This document shows, piece after piece, positions 37,965 through 43,346 of a stretch of DNA of 64,000 nucleotides. This DNA comes from a phage, in the NCBI GenBank assembly GCA_011939005.1, contig GCA_011939005.1_4858.1, one strand, 5' to 3'. The position numbers were made by a program, and so were the translations under genes. The notes below the pieces were generated by a model. That model worked only from the letters and a program-made list of their open reading frames with translations, was not told where the DNA came from and did not search any database. Within the stretch, counting starts at the first letter, position 1, and every line of letters begins with the position of its first letter.

Positions 37965-37998
37965 CTTTTCTAATCCGAGACAAAAAAAGAAAGGGTAA

Positions 37999-38020
37999 AT
38001 CCCCCACCGAAGTGGGGGAT
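37999..38020 (-). terminator. intrinsic terminator hairpin, UUCG loop
   Basis: stem ATCCCCCAC/GTGGGGGAT with CGAA loop on +; A-run 37982-37993 on +; follows stop of 38033-39292. Confidence 0.55.
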
Positions 38021-38032
38021 TCGCCAGTCTAA

Positions 38033-39292
38033 TTACTTAGACTTTTCGTACGCACCGATACCAGCGCTGATGTAGCCGTTAACGCCGGCGATCAGGTTTT
38101 TCTGGCCGGTTGCAACGCAACGTTCGGTCCAGGAGATGTACTGGTTCGCAACGGTGATTGCACGACGTGCAACACGGACGTTGGAAGTCAGTTCTGCGTT
38201 GTCGTCGATCTTCACGCCGTCGATACGTTTCAGCAGTTTCTCAATAGCCTGCTCGTAACGCTCTTGAGCCTGGTTATTTTTGTGGTATGCTTTCACGTTC
38301 TCTTCGACTGCTTTACCCAGCTGGTTGAAGAACGCAACCAGGGAAGACAGAGTCTGAGCAGACGGAGTAGAAACAGACTGCTCTACGCTACCTTCGGCGT
38401 CGATAACAGTGAAGGAAGCTTCCAGGTCATCCCCATTCACTTTCACTTCGGCTTTACCGATCTGGTTGCCCAGCAGCTGAACTTCGCCCGCTTTACCTGC
38501 GGTTGCTTTGTTAACCGCTGCTGCAAAGCCAGAGCCCAGTTTGCCGCCTTCAACTGCGCCAACCATAGCGGTAGCGGCTGCAACAACTGCATCCTGCTCA
38601 GCGTAAATGCTGCCGATAGAAGACATAACGCCTTTCAGGGTGTTGATGTCGTCACCGACGAACTTACCACCGGTGGTCAGGTTCTTAATGAACCCACCGC
38701 TAACGGTGTCTTTCTTCTGCTTGCCCAGGCCACGCAGAGCAGCGTCATATTTCTTAGCACGCGCCTGAATGGATTTACCCTGGTTGCTGAACTTCAGCCA
38801 ACGGTCTTTAACCTTACGGCCTTGTTCTTTCAGCCAGTCGTAGATGCGCTGCAGGAACGCTTTGATGTCGTCCCACAGGCTTTCACGAGCAACCTGGCGG
38901 CGCTTACGTGCACCGTAAGATTCCTGCGCGACGCTTACGCGGTGGTCGAATGCCCAACGTTTACGGATAGATTCCTGCGCAACGTCCAGCTGCTCAGCAG
39001 CTTCGTCAGGCATATCTTCTTCCACTTCCATTGGCTCTTCGCCATCTTCACCTTCACCGTCAGCGGCAGCTTCAGCAGCATCGACTGCTTCCAGCTGCGC
39101 GTCGGTTTCGTCGCCGTCTTCTGCCAGCACATCTGCTTCAGCATCCAGCTGGTCGATCGGTTTGGTGTCGTGCTCGATGTCAGCCAGAGTACCTTCTACG
39201 GACTCAGCCGGCAGCTCGATACCGTCCGGAACGACAGTACCTGTACCTTCGACAGATTCACGCGCGAGTTTACTTTTTACAAAGTTTGCCAT
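38033..39292 (-). CDS. abundant virion-type protein, paralog 1 (acidic N-terminal region)
   Basis: 419 aa; N-terminus MANFVKSKLARESVE and C-terminus GIGAYEKSK shared with 39370-40647; strong codon periodicity; GAGGA SD. Confidence 0.5.
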   Translation of the reverse strand: MANFVKSKLARESVEGTGTVVPDGIELPAESVEGTLADIEHDTKPIDQLDAEADVLAEDGDETDAQLEAVDAAEAAADGEGEDGEEPMEVEEDMPDEAAEQLDVAQESIRKRWAFDHRVSVAQESYGARKRRQVARESLWDDIKAFLQRIYDWLKEQGRKVKDRWLKFSNQGKSIQARAKKYDAALRGLGKQKKDTVSGGFIKNLTTGGKFVGDDINTLKGVMSSIGSIYAEQDAVVAAATAMVGAVEGGKLGSGFAAAVNKATAGKAGEVQLLGNQIGKAEVKVNGDDLEASFTVIDAEGSVEQSVSTPSAQTLSSLVAFFNQLGKAVEENVKAYHKNNQAQERYEQAIEKLLKRIDGVKIDDNAELTSNVRVARRAITVANQYISWTERCVATGQKNLIAGVNGYISAGIGAYEKSK

Positions 39293-39369
39293 CTTTTTCT
39301 ATCCTCTAGGCGGTACGCCGTGTACCGCCATTAATGATTTGTCAACCGACGTTTGGTACGTAAAGCGGA

Positions 39370-40647
39370 TTAAGCTTTAGACTTTTCGTACGCGCCGATA
39401 CCAGCACCGATGTAGCCGTTCAGACCGCTGATAACAGTGTTACCAACATGCGCCACGGCACGGTTCAGAGTCTGGTAGTTACGCACAGCCTGGTCGGCTG
39501 CAGTACGTGCATTACGCAGTGCTTCCCACTCGCCTTCGTCGTTGGATTTATCCAGGGCAGCAGCAGCTTTGGCAGCAGCCTGCTCCAGTTTCTCAACTTC
39601 GGCGTCATAGGAGCGGAAGTCCTGCAGCACTTTCTCGAAACCTTTACCGATCGCATCAAGAGCGGTTGCTGCAGACGCCAGTGCGGTAATTGCCGGGGTA
39701 GCAATCTCTTTCGTGTCGGTAGAGTCGCCAGTTGACAGGAACGCCACCGCAGTGTACTCCTGGCCGCCGGCCAGAGTTTTGCTACCGATCTGCACATAGG
39801 CGTTGCCTGGCAGTGCCAGAACTTTCTGACCGCCTTCGCCATCTTCGAACTGCGGCAGGGTGCGCAGTTTCTTAGCAGCGGTACCGAACAGGGCAACATC
39901 AACAGCGCCTTTAGCAGCCGTTGCAGTACCTTCTGCAGTTTTGGTGATCGCTACGGCAGAGTCAGCCGCCTGAGAGGACAGCTTGTTGATAGCGTCTTTC
40001 GCTTTACCGCCGGTCAGCTCTTTCGCGATAGCGATGGAGTTGGCCACATCGAAGTCGCCTTCGATAGACAGTTTGCTAATAAAGCCGCCAGAGATGTTTT
40101 CTTTCTTCTGCTTACCGAGCTTACGCAGCATCTCTTGGTAAGCTTTCGCACGTTTCTGTGCAGACTTACCAACGTTGATGTATTTCAGTTTCAGCTCTTT
40201 CGCTTTCGCGATAACTGCTTTACACAGTTCAACGAAGCGCTTGAACAGATCTTTCAGGGTTTCTTTCCAGCCTTCCTGAGCTGCTTTGGTCATGCCACGG
40301 CCACGGCGATAAGATTCGCGCGCCAGTTTGGTACGATCGATAGCCCAACGCTTACGGATAGATTCCTGCGCCACTTCGGTGTGAGCGATGGCTTCTTCAG
40401 GCATCTCTTCACCGTTTTCGATTTTTTCGTCAGCAGCGTCGATAGCAGCTTCGGTACGCTCGGTATCAGCAGCCAGAGTTTCCTGGTCACCATCGAGCTG
40501 TTCCAGCTGACCGTCAATAGACGCAACTTCTGCCAGCTGAACGTCGATGTTCTCTTCTGCCGGTTCAACGTTGCTCAGACCGTCGATTACGTCGCCGGTA
40601 GCTTCAACGGACTCGCGGGCGAGTTTACTTTTTACAAAGTTTGCCAT
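39370..40647 (-). CDS. abundant virion-type protein, paralog 2
   Basis: 425 aa; same termini as paralog 1 with near-identical nucleotide sequence at both gene ends; AAGGAA SD. Confidence 0.5.
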   Translation of the reverse strand: MANFVKSKLARESVEATGDVIDGLSNVEPAEENIDVQLAEVASIDGQLEQLDGDQETLAADTERTEAAIDAADEKIENGEEMPEEAIAHTEVAQESIRKRWAIDRTKLARESYRRGRGMTKAAQEGWKETLKDLFKRFVELCKAVIAKAKELKLKYINVGKSAQKRAKAYQEMLRKLGKQKKENISGGFISKLSIEGDFDVANSIAIAKELTGGKAKDAINKLSSQAADSAVAITKTAEGTATAAKGAVDVALFGTAAKKLRTLPQFEDGEGGQKVLALPGNAYVQIGSKTLAGGQEYTAVAFLSTGDSTDTKEIATPAITALASAATALDAIGKGFEKVLQDFRSYDAEVEKLEQAAAKAAAALDKSNDEGEWEALRNARTAADQAVRNYQTLNRAVAHVGNTVISGLNGYIGAGIGAYEKSKA

Positions 40648-40703
40648 TTGTTTCGGTTCCTTTGGTTATAACCCAATTACACGCCCCTAGATAAGGGGCC
40701 CCC

Positions 40704-41261
40704 TTAGGGACGTGCGATTTTTAAAAACACTGCTAACGACGAGATCATATCGGATAACCCGTTCGGACGTGTCAACCAACGTGCCAGCAGTTCGTGGTCT
40801 GCATAAGATAATAGACGCCGGTCAGGCGTGTACGTCTGATGCGCAGTTCCCATACGGCGAACTTGCCCACTACGACCGTAAGCCGCAGCAAGAAGTCGTG
40901 AGCCCAGGGAACCGGTTCGCTCTACTTGCTTAGTAGAGTGGATATCGTTCATGTACGATACCAGAAGAACGGACCACTGTCCTGTTGACACTGTACGGCG
41001 TTTACCGTCAAGTATGAACGATGCAGATTCGTTATAAAACGTATTAAACGTAAAACCGACCTGCGGATATTCGTCATATAATACTTGTTGGACAGAGTCA
41101 GCGCCCATCATGCGGAAATACGGCAGCACGACGGCTGCAGCTTCCAGGGTTTCATGTATCAGTTCGTCGTCATGAACCAGCACGGGGTTTTGGGTCAGTT
41201 TCGCCATGTAGTTTTTAATCAACTTCTCGGCGAGGTTAAAATTCTGGTCATTGTCAAACAT
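40704..41261 (-). CDS. hypothetical protein
   Basis: 185-aa ORF with AGGAGAG SD. Confidence 0.5.
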   Translation of the reverse strand: MFDNDQNFNLAEKLIKNYMAKLTQNPVLVHDDELIHETLEAAAVVLPYFRMMGADSVQQVLYDEYPQVGFTFNTFYNESASFILDGKRRTVSTGQWSVLLVSYMNDIHSTKQVERTGSLGSRLLAAAYGRSGQVRRMGTAHQTYTPDRRLLSYADHELLARWLTRPNGLSDMISSLAVFLKIARP

Positions 41262-41284
41262 GAGACTCTCCTGATAATACGGTC

Positions 41285-42217
41285 TTAGACCAGACCGTAT
41301 TTTTTCTCCAGACGTTCACGTTTGTACTTGAGTTCCATCAAGCGCTTTTCGTGCGCTTCGATGAGTTTCTCAATGTGCACGTCCCCTTCACCGGCAGCCA
41401 GTTGTTTCTTGTACAACAGAATACGCAGCTCAGTCGCTTTCGCGGCTTCCACGCACTCGTCATAACGATCCATTTGCCATTCTGCAATATTCAGACGCAC
41501 GCGGTAGACGATCGACAGCGGGAACGGAACGGAGGACATACCCAGTGGATCAGTGGTGTTCGAACCGAACTGCTGAACCAATTGGCTATATGTCTCTTCG
41601 TCAAACACCGCTTCGGGTATCTCAGCGTAGTCTGCTTTCAGTTTGGTAATGGGGGTTGCCAGGACGCGCACCGCAATACAGAAAGACGTCTTACGAGTTT
41701 GCAGATACTGAAGGTCTTTCGGACCGATTCCCTTCACTGCAATGTTCGAGTCTTGTACAGCGGCAATCTCTTCGGCCGTGATGTAGTTAATCAGGGTGCT
41801 AGCGTAACCGACGAAGAACTCGATCATATCCAGCAACTGCAACACGGTTTGTTTGTTGAACGTTAGAGATGACGTCACCAACGTCTTCCCGATATCGCGG
41901 TCGATACACTGCTCCAGGAAAGGTCGCAGCGCCTGTACGTTCTGCATAGACGCGATGACGTACTCCAGCATACTTGCGTTACGTAACCCTTTAACTTCCA
42001 AACCGGAGCTATGCAGGTACTTAACGATTTCAGTAGAAAGGTCTGCAACAGGCTTCGCTTTAAATGGCTTACCCTGGACACTTCCCACCAGTTCCTGGAG
42101 GTTCTGGAACTGTGGCTCTAATGCAGCAATCGAGTCGCAGTTAGATGACAGTTGGTTTTTTAAGTTCGTGGCTTCGAAGCTCGGCAGCAACATCGCCAAC
42201 ATATTCGGAATCGGCAT
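41285..42217 (-). CDS. hypothetical protein
   Basis: start at ATG 42217 with AAGGGGAAAAGA SD (ORF-track start 42262 overlaps upstream gene). Confidence 0.5.
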   Translation of the reverse strand: MPIPNMLAMLLPSFEATNLKNQLSSNCDSIAALEPQFQNLQELVGSVQGKPFKAKPVADLSTEIVKYLHSSGLEVKGLRNASMLEYVIASMQNVQALRPFLEQCIDRDIGKTLVTSSLTFNKQTVLQLLDMIEFFVGYASTLINYITAEEIAAVQDSNIAVKGIGPKDLQYLQTRKTSFCIAVRVLATPITKLKADYAEIPEAVFDEETYSQLVQQFGSNTTDPLGMSSVPFPLSIVYRVRLNIAEWQMDRYDECVEAAKATELRILLYKKQLAAGEGDVHIEKLIEAHEKRLMELKYKRERLEKKYGLV

Positions 42218-42227
42218 TCTTTTCCCC

Positions 42228-43346
42228 TTACAGTACCGGATTCGCGCCGACGCGATAGGCATCGATGATTTTGTTTACATCGCCGCTACCGGACTTCGCC
42301 TTGCTAAAGTCTGATTTGTCGAGTTCTTGAGACCCGGTCTGGCCACGCGTATAAATGGTTACACGGTTCCAGGTCTGGTCGACAACCACGTAGTAAACAG
42401 TCAGGGTGTCTTTGAACACACGCTGGCGGATATTGTAATCATCGAAGTCACCGCCCAGCTGAGCAGTCAGATCGTCGATAGTTTCTTGAGAAACCACCAT
42501 AACCGAAGACGCGTTGTTGATGGATGGGCTCAGCGTCAGTAGGCCAGACAGCCAGTTGGCGTTTTTCTTTTCCATCATCTTGCGGTAATAACCGGACTTA
42601 TCACGGAAGCGGTTCTTACGGTATTCTTCGATAAGGTCATTACACAGCGCGATATCTTTCGCGTAGCTGAGAGAACCGACCTTCGCACGCAGCACGCGTT
42701 CCCAGAAGGTTTTAGTCTGATCGCTGAACGCAATCAGTGTTTTCATTTCGTCGGTTGGCAGAGACTTCACATCAAGACGCAGACGCATCGGCAGCTCAAC
42801 TTTATTACCGTCACGTTCGAAGGTAACAGAGAACACTTTACCGTTGGACAGTCCTTCTTGATCATGCAGGAGCTTCAGTGTGTTGTTCGGCAGCACAGAA
42901 CCTGCGGATGATTCAGTCGCTACTTTGTTATCGGATTTCTGGCGACGGGATTCACCGACCGCAAGCCCGATTTTATCGTATGACGGCAGCGCGTGACGGG
43001 AGGACTCGCCGATTGCGAAAGACGCTAAGCGAGAACCCGAACGTGCAGCCGCGTCGAGGGCATTACGACGGGTGCTAACCTGGTCAAGCGTACCAAGGAT
43101 ATCAACCTCAGGAACACCTACCAGAATTGAGATGGCGGTAAGTTGGTTGCCCGCGAGCAGGATTTGGATTTTCTCCAGAATACCTGGCAGGTAATCTAAG
43201 CCCAACAGACTTTGTTCAACCAGCGTGGTGTGCTCGTTGTACAGCACAGAGTTGAATTCTTCCGTCGATTCCGCCCGCTGGCGAAGCAGCATGGGAAACT
43301 TAGAAAGAAAGGAGACGAGCGATGTCTCAAATGTTTTTTCTGCCAT
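42228..43346 (-). CDS. hypothetical protein
   Basis: 372-aa ORF; diverges from plus gene at 43369. Confidence 0.5.
   Translation of the reverse strand: MAEKTFETSLVSFLSKFPMLLRQRAESTEEFNSVLYNEHTTLVEQSLLGLDYLPGILEKIQILLAGNQLTAISILVGVPEVDILGTLDQVSTRRNALDAAARSGSRLASFAIGESSRHALPSYDKIGLAVGESRRQKSDNKVATESSAGSVLPNNTLKLLHDQEGLSNGKVFSVTFERDGNKVELPMRLRLDVKSLPTDEMKTLIAFSDQTKTFWERVLRAKVGSLSYAKDIALCNDLIEEYRKNRFRDKSGYYRKMMEKKNANWLSGLLTLSPSINNASSVMVVSQETIDDLTAQLGGDFDDYNIRQRVFKDTLTVYYVVVDQTWNRVTIYTRGQTGSQELDKSDFSKAKSGSGDVNKIIDAYRVGANPVL

What the first reader, a model, noticed from the sequence alone, without database searches (positions are those of the whole stretch)
38033..40647. Paralogous pair of abundant virion-type proteins with near-identical gene ends and candidate protease-processing sites
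The two genes encode 419- and 425-aa proteins with the same N-terminus (MANFVKSKLARESVE) and C-terminus (GIGAYEKSK), acidic N-terminal regions, and AQE-S motifs (VAQESIRKRW) like the S/A/G-x-E cleavage sites of phiKZ-type prohead proteases. About 30 nt at the 5' ends and 45 nt at the 3' ends are nearly identical at nucleotide level while the middles diverge, suggesting gene conversion or selection on the termini. This fits inner-body or ejection proteins of jumbo phage heads.
Basis: partly seen in the sequence, partly recalled or inferred. Interest (0 to 1): 0.5.

Follow-up and report, generated by a model that had tools for sequence, protein, structure and literature searches.

The report
Known jumbo-phage internal head protein pair
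These two neighbouring genes are the counterparts of gp53 and gp54 of Salmonella giant phage SPN3US, whose abundance in the head and trimming by the phage protease are already published; the one new point is that the matching gene ends are partly kept alike by short copy-and-paste events between the two genes.

Summary

**What it is.** The window comes from an SPN3US-like Salmonella jumbo phage (99% nt to JN03, 92.9% to SPN3US).
- ORF 39370-40647(-), 425 aa, is 96.2% identical in protein sequence to SPN3US gp53.
- ORF 38033-39292(-), 419 aa, is 95.5% identical to gp54.
- Both match Pfam PF12699 (phiKZ internal head proteins).

**What is published for SPN3US.**
- The identical 15-residue N-terminus.
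- More than 600 copies of each protein per head.
- An inner shell made of both proteins in immature capsids.

All these sites are conserved in the window.

**What I added.** Across 8 phage lineages the paralogs evolve in concert only in codons 1-10 and the last ~5 codons (exact permutation p=1.5e-4 each). The ARES(V/I)E block and the NGYIxAGIGAY motif are ordinary purifying selection plus codon bias. One sister lineage carries a clear 47-nt gene-conversion tract at the 5' end. For the window itself, conversion is plausible but not proven.

**Verdict.** Already known; low to moderate interest.

The parts
39370..40647 (-). Gene for the 425-aa internal head (ejection) protein, ortholog of SPN3US gp53. 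It encodes a precursor made of a 12-aa leader, an acidic propeptide and a basic helix-rich mature domain (residues 126-425).
   Evidence: ORF. 96.2% protein identity to SPN3US gp53. PF12699 E=1e-76. AlphaFold2 model with pLDDT 83 and pTM 0.81, mostly long helices.
38033..39292 (-). Gene for the 419-aa internal head (ejection) protein, ortholog of SPN3US gp54 and tandem paralog of the upstream gene. The mature domain is residues 138-419.
   Evidence: ORF. 95.5% protein identity to SPN3US gp54. PF12699 E=1.7e-58. 35% identity to its paralog.
40612..40647 (-). Leader of the gp53-like protein, MANFVKSKLARE|S. It ends at the ARE-12 protease site. Its first 29 nt (40619-40647) are identical to the gp54-like gene.
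   Evidence: ARE-12 cleavage was seen in SPN3US gp53. N3, F4, A10, E12 and S13 are invariant in 59 homologs. Concerted evolution of codons 1-10.
39257..39292 (-). Leader of the gp54-like protein, MANFVKSKLARE|S. Its first 29 nt (39264-39292) are identical to the gp53-like gene.
40360..40371 (-). AQE-95|S site (VAQE|SIRKRW) in the gp53-like protein.
   Evidence: Motif position. The site is cut in SPN3US gp53. E95, S96, R100 and W101 are invariant.
40312..40323 (-). ARE-111|S candidate site (KLARE|SYRR) in the gp53-like propeptide. It repeats the leader's KLARES.
   Evidence: E111 and S112 are invariant. Not reported as cut in SPN3US Table 2.
40270..40281 (-). AQE-125|G maturation site of the gp53-like protein. 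The mature N-terminus is GWKETLKDLF.
   Evidence: The SPN3US semi-tryptic peptide (E)GWKETLKDLFER marks this site.
38969..38980 (-). AQE-107|S site (VAQE|SIRKRW) in the gp54-like protein. It is a candidate site only and has not been reported as cut.
   Evidence: Absent from the SPN3US gp54 site list.
38918..38929 (-). AQE-124|S propeptide site of the gp54-like protein.
   Evidence: Cut in SPN3US gp54, seen in chymotrypsin data.
38879..38890 (-). ARE-137|S maturation site of the gp54-like protein. The mature N-terminus is SLWDDIK.
   Evidence: The SPN3US peptide (E)SLWDDIK marks this site.
39376..39420 (-). 3' conserved block of the gp53-like gene (NGYIGAGIGAYEKSK), 41/45 nt identical to its paralog.
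   Evidence: The NGY..AGIGAY part shows no within-genome excess (p=0.38); only the last ~5 codons are concerted (p=1.5e-4).
38036..38080 (-). 3' conserved block of the gp54-like gene (NGYISAGIGAYEKSK).
39309..39329 (-). Conserved intergenic stem-loop (GGCGGTAC-ACGGC-GTACCGCC) directly before the gp54-like ribosome-binding site TAGAGGA.
   Evidence: Sequence. Seen in 14 phage lineages, with compensatory changes in 5 of 8 pairs. Function not determined.
37997..38022 (-). Intrinsic-terminator-like hairpin (CCCCCAC-TTCG-GTGGGGG followed by a T-rich tail) after the gp54-like stop codon. It probably ends the two-gene transcript.
   Evidence: A hairpin is kept at this position with changed stem sequence in other genera.
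40664..40682 (-). Conserved motif GTGTAATTGGGTTATAACC upstream of the gp53-like gene, containing the palindrome GGTTATAACC. It is a candidate phage promoter or operator.
   Evidence: Conserved across genera. Occurs once in the window. Function not tested.

Best explanation
The two genes are the orthologs of SPN3US gp53 and gp54, the two most abundant internal head ("ejection") proteins of this jumbo-phage group. They are an old tandem duplicate of the phiKZ internal-head-protein family.

**Shown here from sequence.** Each protein is made as a precursor with four parts:
- a 12-residue leader, M-A-N-F-x5-A-R-E|S;
- a very acidic region;
- a cluster of A-x-E|S protease sites;
- a basic, helix-rich domain of about 280-300 residues that ends in NGY[IL]xAGI[GA]AY-x-K.

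**Published for SPN3US, and inferred for this phage by 95-96% identity.**
- Both proteins are loaded in hundreds of copies under the capsid shell.
- The prohead protease gp245 cuts after Glu at the A-x-E sites and fragments the propeptide.
- The mature domains stay in the head with the DNA.

**Inferred by homology to phiKZ gp93.**
- The stretch just after the leader may stay bound to the inner capsid surface.
- The helix-rich domain leaves the head with the DNA.

**Why the gene ends match at nucleotide level.** Three effects combine:
- protein-level selection on the leader, the cleavage sites and the C-terminal motif;
- strong codon bias in highly expressed genes;
- occasional short-tract gene conversion between the two tandem copies, confined to roughly codons 1-10(16) and the last few codons.

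The third effect is shown directly in a sister lineage and is only inferred for this phage.
For: **Identity.**
- Megablast gives 99% to phage JN03 and 92.9% to SPN3US over the whole 2.6 kb.
- The RefSeq SPN3US annotation calls both genes 'internal head protein'.
- Protein identity is 96.2% and 95.5%. Both match PF12699.
- The neighbouring gene (40704-41261) matches PF25618, the phiKZ gp91 family. The three genes preceding the pair on the - strand lie in the same order as phiKZ gp89-gp91 before gp92-97.

**Function.**
- Abundance, paralog family A and the shared N-terminus are in PMC5694885.
- The mapped cleavage sites are in PMC10052503.
- The T=1 inner shell made of gp53 and gp54 is in PMC7552025.
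- Every mapped site is present in the window proteins at the same residue numbers, and the site residues are invariant or nearly so in 59 homologs.

**Homology to phiKZ gp93.**
- The alignment is colinear: KLARE12|S matches gp93 KLSLE13|S, VAQE95|S matches VGME119|S, and AAQE125|G matches ISLE156|D (hhalign probability 92.6%).
- gp93 residues 14-84 line the inner capsid surface (PMC11297242).
- gp93 is injected with the DNA (bioRxiv 2024.03.24.586471).

**Concerted ends, across 8 lineages.**
- Codons 1-10: within-genome paralog nt identity 0.86, against 0.66 across genomes and 0.66 between orthologs (exact permutation p=1.5e-4).
- Last 5 codons: 0.78 against 0.52 (p=1.5e-4).
- All other segments show no excess, p=0.13-0.83.

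**Conversion tract in a sister lineage.**
- In L018 and L024, the first 47 nt of gene 2 equal gene 1, synonymous sites included. The 5' UTR and the rest of gene 2 stay gene-2-type.
- The sister loci L015-17 and L025-27 keep a different gene-2 leader (MANFYKNKI).
- 17 of the 73 differences between L015 and L018 gene 2 fall in the first 60 nt (P=4e-8).
Against: **No experimental data for this phage.** Virion presence, copy number and cleavage are all transferred from SPN3US by homology.

**Conversion in this particular phage is not proven.**
- At residues that are identical, the same-codon rate within a genome is barely above that between genomes: 0.78 against 0.72 in codons 1-10, and 0.65 against 0.68 in the C-terminal motif.
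- The changes from pEa29-type AQRKI to SPN3US-type VKSKL are all single-nucleotide steps. Parallel adaptation of both leaders to one partner could therefore give the same codons.
- The untranslated flanks show no concerted similarity, p=0.22-0.47, so any tract has very little outer homology to anchor it.

**Other weak points.**
- Capsid binding by the N-terminal arm is extrapolated from phiKZ at about 28% identity.
- The 3'-end conversion in the L015 lineage rests on 4 of 95 differences falling in the last 21 coding nt. That clustering is weak on its own (my binomial estimate, about 0.07).
Confidence: 0.9

Rival explanations
1. There has been no gene conversion in this phage. The matching ends reflect only purifying selection plus co-evolution. 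On this view the leader and the C-terminal tail of both paralogs dock on the same lineage-specific partner (prohead core, capsid inner surface or protease), so both copies track that partner's changes. Codon bias accounts for the synonymous identity.
For: - The same-codon rate at identical residues is similar within and between genomes.
- The lineage differences in the leader are all single-nucleotide steps.
- The UTRs are not concerted.
- Some genomes tolerate clearly different leaders on the two paralogs: Asesino, phiEaH2 and L015.
- The phiKZ paralogs gp93, gp94, gp95 and gp97 have similar but non-identical 11-13-residue leaders ending in SLE, which looks like a functional tag kept by selection.
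Against: - L018 and L024 show a 47-nt tract that is identical even at synonymous sites, with sharp breakpoints. Conversion therefore does occur in this gene pair.
- Several unrelated lineages have perfect 5' runs of 23-29 nt that stop near codon 10: the window, L037, L033 and L028.
- Four of nine leader residues changed identically in both copies between SPN3US-type and pEa29-type phages, whose gp53 proteins are otherwise 88% identical.
Confidence: 0.35
2. The pair is a recent duplication whose middle has diverged rapidly under diversifying selection, with the ends simply lagging behind.
For: The genes are tandem and the middle is only about 47% identical at nucleotide level.
Against: - Both copies are present, in the same order, in every phage genus examined.
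- In the body of the genes orthologs are much closer than paralogs (0.60-0.73 against 0.37-0.54 nt identity), so the duplication predates the divergence of these genera.
- Synonymous sites in codons 10-14 all differ in the window.
Confidence: 0.02
3. The proteins act mainly as a scaffold or core for building the very large capsid rather than as cargo delivered to the host. The leader and the C-terminal tail would then be scaffold-to-shell contacts.
For: - gp53 and gp54 form an ordered T=1 inner shell in protease-deficient capsids.
- Heads become unstable when gp53 and gp54 are not incorporated, as in the gp243 amber mutant.
- The N-terminal part of phiKZ gp93 cements hexamers together.
Against: - The mature domains remain in the finished SPN3US virion at high copy number, whereas a classical scaffold is expelled.
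- phiKZ gp93 is seen entering the cell with the DNA.
- The two roles do not exclude each other.
Confidence: 0.3

Closest known systems
Salmonella phage SPN3US gp53 and gp54 ('paralog family A', high-abundance ejection proteins)
   Same: - Orthologs with 96.2% and 95.5% protein identity, the same lengths (425 and 419 aa), and the same gene order and neighbours.
- Identical 15-residue N-terminus.
- All mapped protease sites at the same residue numbers.
   Different: Only 16 and 19 amino-acid substitutions, none at a cleavage site. One lies near a site: K136 here against E136 in the gp53 mature N-terminal peptide. No experimental data exist for this particular phage.
Pseudomonas phage phiKZ gp93 and its paralogs (gp92, 94, 95, 97, 162, 163), Pfam PF12699 inner-body proteins
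   Same: - Same Pfam family.
- Same layout: a short leader ending in x-x-E at residue 11-13, a long N-terminal region with several protease sites, then a helix-rich domain.
- Colinear alignment of the cleavage sites.
- Same genomic neighbourhood after gp89-gp91 homologs.
   Different: - About 28% identity.
- phiKZ has seven or more paralogs against two here.
- The phiKZ protease prefers S/A/G-x-E (mostly SLE), while the SPN3US protease is stricter (A-x-E).
- phiKZ builds a cylindrical inner body. SPN3US shows an inner shell in immature capsids.
- Estimated copy numbers are higher in SPN3US.
Phage T4 internal proteins (IPI, IPII, IPIII, Alt) with their capsid targeting sequence, removed by the gp21 protease
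   Same: The working analogy is a roughly 10-12-residue N-terminal tag shared by several packaged proteins. It ends at a Glu that the prohead protease cuts after, and the cargo is later injected with the DNA. The SPN3US authors drew this analogy themselves; the T4 details are from my own knowledge.
   Different: There is no sequence or fold relationship. Targeting by the SPN3US-type leader has not been tested. Here the leader is followed by a further propeptide of about 110-125 residues, which the T4 internal proteins lack.

Membership tests
Pfam PF12699 (phiKZ-like phage internal head proteins) | Profile HMM score above the curated gathering threshold (27 bits) over most of the profile. | tested here: met
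   259.1 bits (profile positions 2-387 of 387) and 199.2 bits (2-387 of 387).
Orthologs of SPN3US gp53 and gp54 | High full-length identity and conserved gene order. | tested here: met
   96.2% and 95.5% protein identity, 92.9% nt identity over the pair, and the same flanking genes.
Substrates of the phiKZ-type prohead protease (MEROPS S80; SPN3US gp245) | A-x-E motifs at the positions where cleavage was mapped in SPN3US. | tested here: met
   ARE-12, AQE-95 and AQE-125 in the 425-aa protein, and AQE-124 and ARE-137 in the 419-aa protein, are all present. The site residues are invariant or nearly so in 59 homologs.
Substrates of the phiKZ-type prohead protease (MEROPS S80; SPN3US gp245) | Actual cleavage in this phage's heads. 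| not testable with these tools
   This needs virion mass spectrometry. It has been shown only for SPN3US.
High-abundance internal head / ejection proteins | Present inside the head in hundreds of copies and released into the host with the DNA. | not testable with these tools
   Abundance is published for SPN3US. Injection has been shown only for the phiKZ homolog gp93.
Capsid-targeting-sequence type tag (T4-like, functional class only) | A short N-terminal peptide shared by packaged proteins, ending at a protease site. | tested here: met
   The 12-residue leader is identical in both paralogs, and ARE-12 is cut in SPN3US gp53. No other ORF longer than 100 codons in the 64-kb window carries the leader.
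Capsid-targeting-sequence type tag (T4-like, functional class only) | The tag is necessary and sufficient to load a protein into the prohead. | not testable with these tools
   No experiment was found in the papers read.
Gene conversion between tandem paralogs | Within-genome paralog similarity exceeds ortholog similarity in a bounded segment. | tested here: met
   Codons 1-10: 0.86 against 0.66. Last 5 codons: 0.78 against 0.54. Both p=1.5e-4. No excess elsewhere.
Gene conversion between tandem paralogs | The tract is identical at synonymous sites and has clear breakpoints relative to a close relative that lacks it. | tested here: inconclusive
   Met for the sister lineage L018/L024 against L015 (47 nt; P=4e-8 for the clustering of differences). 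For the window itself the 29-nt run is not clearly beyond what codon bias predicts.

The most novel reading that the evidence does not exclude
The extreme ends of the two paralogs (the leader before ARE-12 and the last 3-5 residues) are kept matched by recurrent micro-conversion between the tandem genes. They must stay matched because both proteins present the same lineage-specific docking peptides to one partner during prohead loading. If so, the 12-residue leader, perhaps together with the C-terminal tail, would be a portable and lineage-specific packaging tag for loading foreign proteins into SPN3US-type heads.
Probability: 0.4. Interest if true: 0.45.

Novelty: already known. Interest (0 to 1): 0.22.

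Why it matters
For genome annotation the region can be labelled confidently: two internal head (ejection) protein precursors with known protease sites.

The only part that goes beyond the literature I could search is the evolutionary pattern. Concerted evolution is confined to the first ~10 and last ~5 codons, and there is one clear 47-nt conversion tract in a related lineage. This points to the short leader and the C-terminal tail as the parts of these very abundant proteins that are read by a common partner. That gives a direct, cheap experiment on how giant phage heads load more than a thousand copies of cargo: leader swaps, or leader-reporter fusions.

Tried and rejected
- **Sequence search of PDB chains with the 425-aa protein:** no hit at E<=1.
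- **Test for concerted similarity in the untranslated flanks:** negative, p=0.22-0.47.
- **Synonymous-codon test for conversion across 8 lineages:** no clear within-genome excess. I therefore do not claim conversion for the window itself.
- **Search for the MANF...ARE leader or KLARES-like sites on other ORFs of the window:** only these two genes.
- **Sigma-70 promoter scan:** nothing above the shuffled expectation. It was not expected to be informative for a phage with its own RNA polymerases.
- **C-terminal AYE|KSK as a protease site:** the Glu is not conserved in ChrisDB, Wellington, Machina and Derbicus-type orthologs, so rejected.
- **Literature search for gene conversion in jumbo-phage paralogs:** no paper found. 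A search for newer SPN3US structural work also found nothing.
- **Recent duplication with fast divergence:** rejected because orthologs are much closer than paralogs across genera.
Full report
**1.

The region carries two ORFs on the - strand: 39370-40647 (425 aa) and 38033-39292 (419 aa). Both begin MANFVKSKLARESVE. They end GIGAYEKSKA and GIGAYEKSK. The proteins are 35% identical overall (BLASTP, 9e-54).

At nucleotide level:
- The first 29 nt are identical. Codons 10-14 then each carry a synonymous change.
- The last 45 aligned nt are 91% identical.
- Aligned positions overall are 50% identical.

Residues 16-95 hold 25 and 29 acidic against 2 and 1 basic residues, while the mature parts are net basic. 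VAQE|SIRKRW is present in both proteins, with Glu at position 95 and 107.

**2. What it is.**

The 2.6-kb region is 99.0% identical to Salmonella phage JN03 and 92.9% to SPN3US. It matches 57 phage records, all SPN3US-like phages of Salmonella, Escherichia, Proteus and Erwinia.

- In RefSeq SPN3US both genes are annotated 'internal head protein'.
- The window proteins are 96.2% and 95.5% identical to SPN3US gp53 (425 aa) and gp54 (419 aa).
- Both match Pfam PF12699, 'phiKZ-like phage internal head proteins', over the whole profile (E=1e-76 and 1.7e-58).
- Each phage has exactly two copies, always in tandem and in the same order.
- The gene just before the pair on the - strand (40704-41261) matches PF25618, the phiKZ gp91 vertex-binding protein. 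The three genes preceding the pair lie in the same order as phiKZ gp89-gp91 before gp92-97.

**3. What is already published.**

- *Ali et al. 2017 (PMC5694885).* gp53 and gp54 are 'paralog family A', similar to pfam12699. They are the most abundant virion proteins after the capsid protein, with more than 600 copies each. Their first 15 residues (MANFVKSKLARESVE) are identical and contain AXE-12 and SXE-15. The authors compare this with the T4 capsid targeting sequence. A gp243 amber mutant that fails to incorporate them gives unstable heads.
- *The 2023 mass-spectrometry study (PMC10052503).* It maps cuts by prohead protease gp245 at ARE-12, AQE-95 and AQE-125 in gp53, and at AQE-124 and ARE-137 in gp54. 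The mature N-termini are GWKETLKDLF... and SLWDDIK..., and both are present in the window proteins. Recombinant gp245 cuts gp53 in vitro. Propeptide fragments of gp53 are not fully cleared from the heads.
- *Heymann et al. 2020 (PMC7552025).* In protease-deficient 'mottled' capsids, gp53 and gp54 form a T=1 inner shell that disappears on maturation, although the proteins stay in the head.
- *phiKZ homolog gp93.* Residues 14-84, which begin right after the SLE-13 cut, form fibre-like cement on the inner capsid surface. The helix-rich remainder is assigned to the inner body (PMC11297242). Tagged gp93 is injected with the DNA and marks the early infection vesicle (bioRxiv 2024.03.24.586471).

The one exception is the gp54 copy of VAQE|SIRKRW (AQE-107), which is not in the published list of cut sites.

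**4. Anatomy and likely mechanism.**

An alignment of 59 family members shows these residues invariant: N3, F4, A10, E12, S13, E95, S96, R100, W101, E111 and S112. E125 and the C-terminal G-Y-x-x-A-G-I-x-A-Y are invariant or nearly so.

An AlphaFold2 model built from that alignment is confident (mean pLDDT 83, pTM 0.81). It shows:
- a short helix over the leader;
- a disordered stretch at residues 15-30;
- long helices through the propeptide and the mature domain;
- a small beta insertion at about residues 277-316;
- the C-terminal motif closing the last helix.

Alignment with phiKZ gp93 is colinear, including the cleavage sites:
- KLARE12|S matches KLSLE13|S.
- VAQE95|S matches VGME119|S.
- AAQE125|G matches ISLE156|D.

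The phiKZ paralogs gp93, gp94, gp95 and gp97 also carry 11-13-residue leaders ending in SLE.

My reading of how the proteins work:
- The precursor is loaded under the shell through its N-terminal part.
- The protease removes the leader, cuts at the A-x-E cluster and frees the basic helix-rich domain, which stays with the DNA.
- Capsid binding by residues from about 13 to 95, and delivery into the host, are inferred from phiKZ and are not shown for this group.

The transcript layout is also inferred:
- A conserved motif lies upstream of the first gene (40664-40682).
- A conserved stem-loop sits just before the second gene's ribosome-binding site (39309-39329). It has compensatory changes in 5 of 8 pairs across 14 lineages.
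- A strong terminator-like hairpin follows the second gene (37997-38022).

**5. Gene conversion or selection? (my own analysis)**

I extracted both paralogs from 12 annotated phages in 8 lineages and codon-aligned them.

*Where the paralogs are concerted.*
- Within-genome paralog identity exceeds cross-genome paralog identity only in codons 1-10 (0.86 against 0.66) and in the last 5 codons (0.78 against 0.52). The exact permutation p is 1.5e-4 for each.
- In codons 1-10 the paralogs within one genome are even closer than orthologs are (0.66).
- Codons 11-15 (ARES(V/I)E), the whole middle and the NGYIxAGIGAY block show no excess, p=0.13-0.83.

*How the leaders vary.* Leader types differ between lineages but are usually shared by both copies within a genome:
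- VKSKL in SPN3US-type phages;
- AQRKI in pEa29, SPAsTU, pEa8 and L037;
- AQRKV in L033;
- AQRNL in L028;
- MQ(K/Q)RA in Derbicusvirus.

The last residues behave the same way (KSK, KA, KG, KK, KQ).

*Evidence against conversion as the general cause.*
- At residues that are identical, the same-codon rate within genomes is hardly above that between genomes: 0.78 against 0.72 in codons 1-10, and 0.65 against 0.68 in the C-terminal motif.
- The untranslated flanks are not concerted.

*Direct evidence that conversion does occur.* It comes from a 225-kb metagenomic sister lineage.
- In L015-17 and L025-27, gene 1 starts MANFAKTRAARESMEA and gene 2 starts MANFYKNKIARESMES.
- In L018, L019 and L024, the first 47 nt of gene 2 are identical to gene 1, synonymous sites included. 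The gene-2 5' UTR and the gene-2 body are unchanged.
- 17 of the 73 differences between L015 and L018 gene 2 fall in the first 60 nt (P=4e-8).
- The pattern recurs in many independent samples, and it is a patch inside unique flanks, so it is not an assembly artefact.
- A weaker case exists at the 3' end. In L015, the end of gene 1 (21 coding nt plus 2 nt past the stop codon, 23 nt in all) equals gene 2, whereas in L018 the end of gene 1 differs at four coding sites.

Perfect 5' runs of 23-29 nt ending near codon 10 occur in the window and in L037, L033 and L028. This fits recurrent short tracts, but it does not prove them for this phage.

**6. Comparison and novelty.**

The pair belongs to PF12699 and is orthologous to SPN3US gp53 and gp54; both were tested and met. 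It works like the phiKZ inner-body proteins and, by analogy only, like the T4 internal proteins with their targeting sequence. It has no relationship to T4 in sequence or fold.

The finding is already known. The concerted-ends pattern and the conversion tract are a modest addition that I did not find in the searchable literature.

**7. Verdict.**

- Observation: confirmed.
- Interpretation: supported, but published in 2017 and 2023 for the sister phage.
- Interest: low to moderate (0.22).
- Most novel reading not excluded: the leader and tail are shared docking peptides kept matched by micro-conversion, and usable as a packaging tag (probability about 0.4).

Noticed in passing
window 39309-39329 (- strand), between the two paralogs: A conserved stem-loop (GGCGGTAC-ACGGC-GTACCGCC) sits directly before the ribosome-binding site TAGAGGA of the second gene. 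Across 14 phage lineages the stem sequence changes but stays complementary, with compensatory changes in 5 of 8 pairs. It could be a processing site, an mRNA stabiliser or an attenuator; its function is unknown.
   Followed up: partly
window 40664-40682 (- strand), upstream of the gp53-like gene: The motif GTGTAATTGGGTTATAACC, with the palindrome GGTTATAACC, is conserved in this position across several phage genera. It occurs only once in the 64-kb window. It is a candidate phage-specific promoter or operator for this very highly expressed gene pair.
   Followed up: partly
window 37997-38022 (- strand): A strong terminator-like hairpin with a TTCG loop (CCCCCAC-TTCG-GTGGGGG plus a T-rich tail) follows the second gene. 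A hairpin is kept at this position with a different stem in other genera, for example GGGGCC-TTCG-GGCCCC in Derbicusvirus.
   Followed up: partly
window 38033-38050 and 39370-39390 (C-termini of both proteins): The C-terminal ...GAYE|KSK(A) also fits the A-x-E protease motif. Cutting there would remove only 3-4 residues. The Glu is not conserved in several orthologs (ChrisDB, Wellington, Machina, Derbicus types), so it is probably not a conserved site.
   Followed up: partly
window 40312-40329 (gp53-like residues 107-112): The propeptide repeats the leader's KLARES (TKLARE|SYRR). E111 and S112 are invariant in 59 homologs, but ARE-111 is not among the published SPN3US cleavage sites. It is a candidate additional site.
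   Followed up: no
window 40704-43346 (- strand): The three genes before the pair (372, 325 and 185 aa) lie in the same order as phiKZ gp89-gp91 before gp92-97. The 185-aa protein matches PF25618, the phiKZ gp91 vertex-binding protein (E=4.9e-7).
   Followed up: partly
[not shown]
   Followed up: no
loci L015, L018, L024, L026 (225-kb metagenomic phage lineage): The gene-2 body comes in two types that are about 86% identical, and the body type is uncoupled from the leader type. The gene-2 leader type tracks the gene-1 type instead. This indicates exchange between phages with breakpoints inside or next to these genes, in addition to the paralog conversion.
   Followed up: partly
GenBank records of Salmonella phages SPFM5-10, 12, 14, 15, 20 (hits H24-H30; P0053-P0059): In these records the same region aligns only as about 40 short pieces at 98-99% identity. 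The annotated proteins there have odd lengths and no precomputed Pfam match. This looks like indel-rich sequencing or assembly rather than biology.
   Followed up: no
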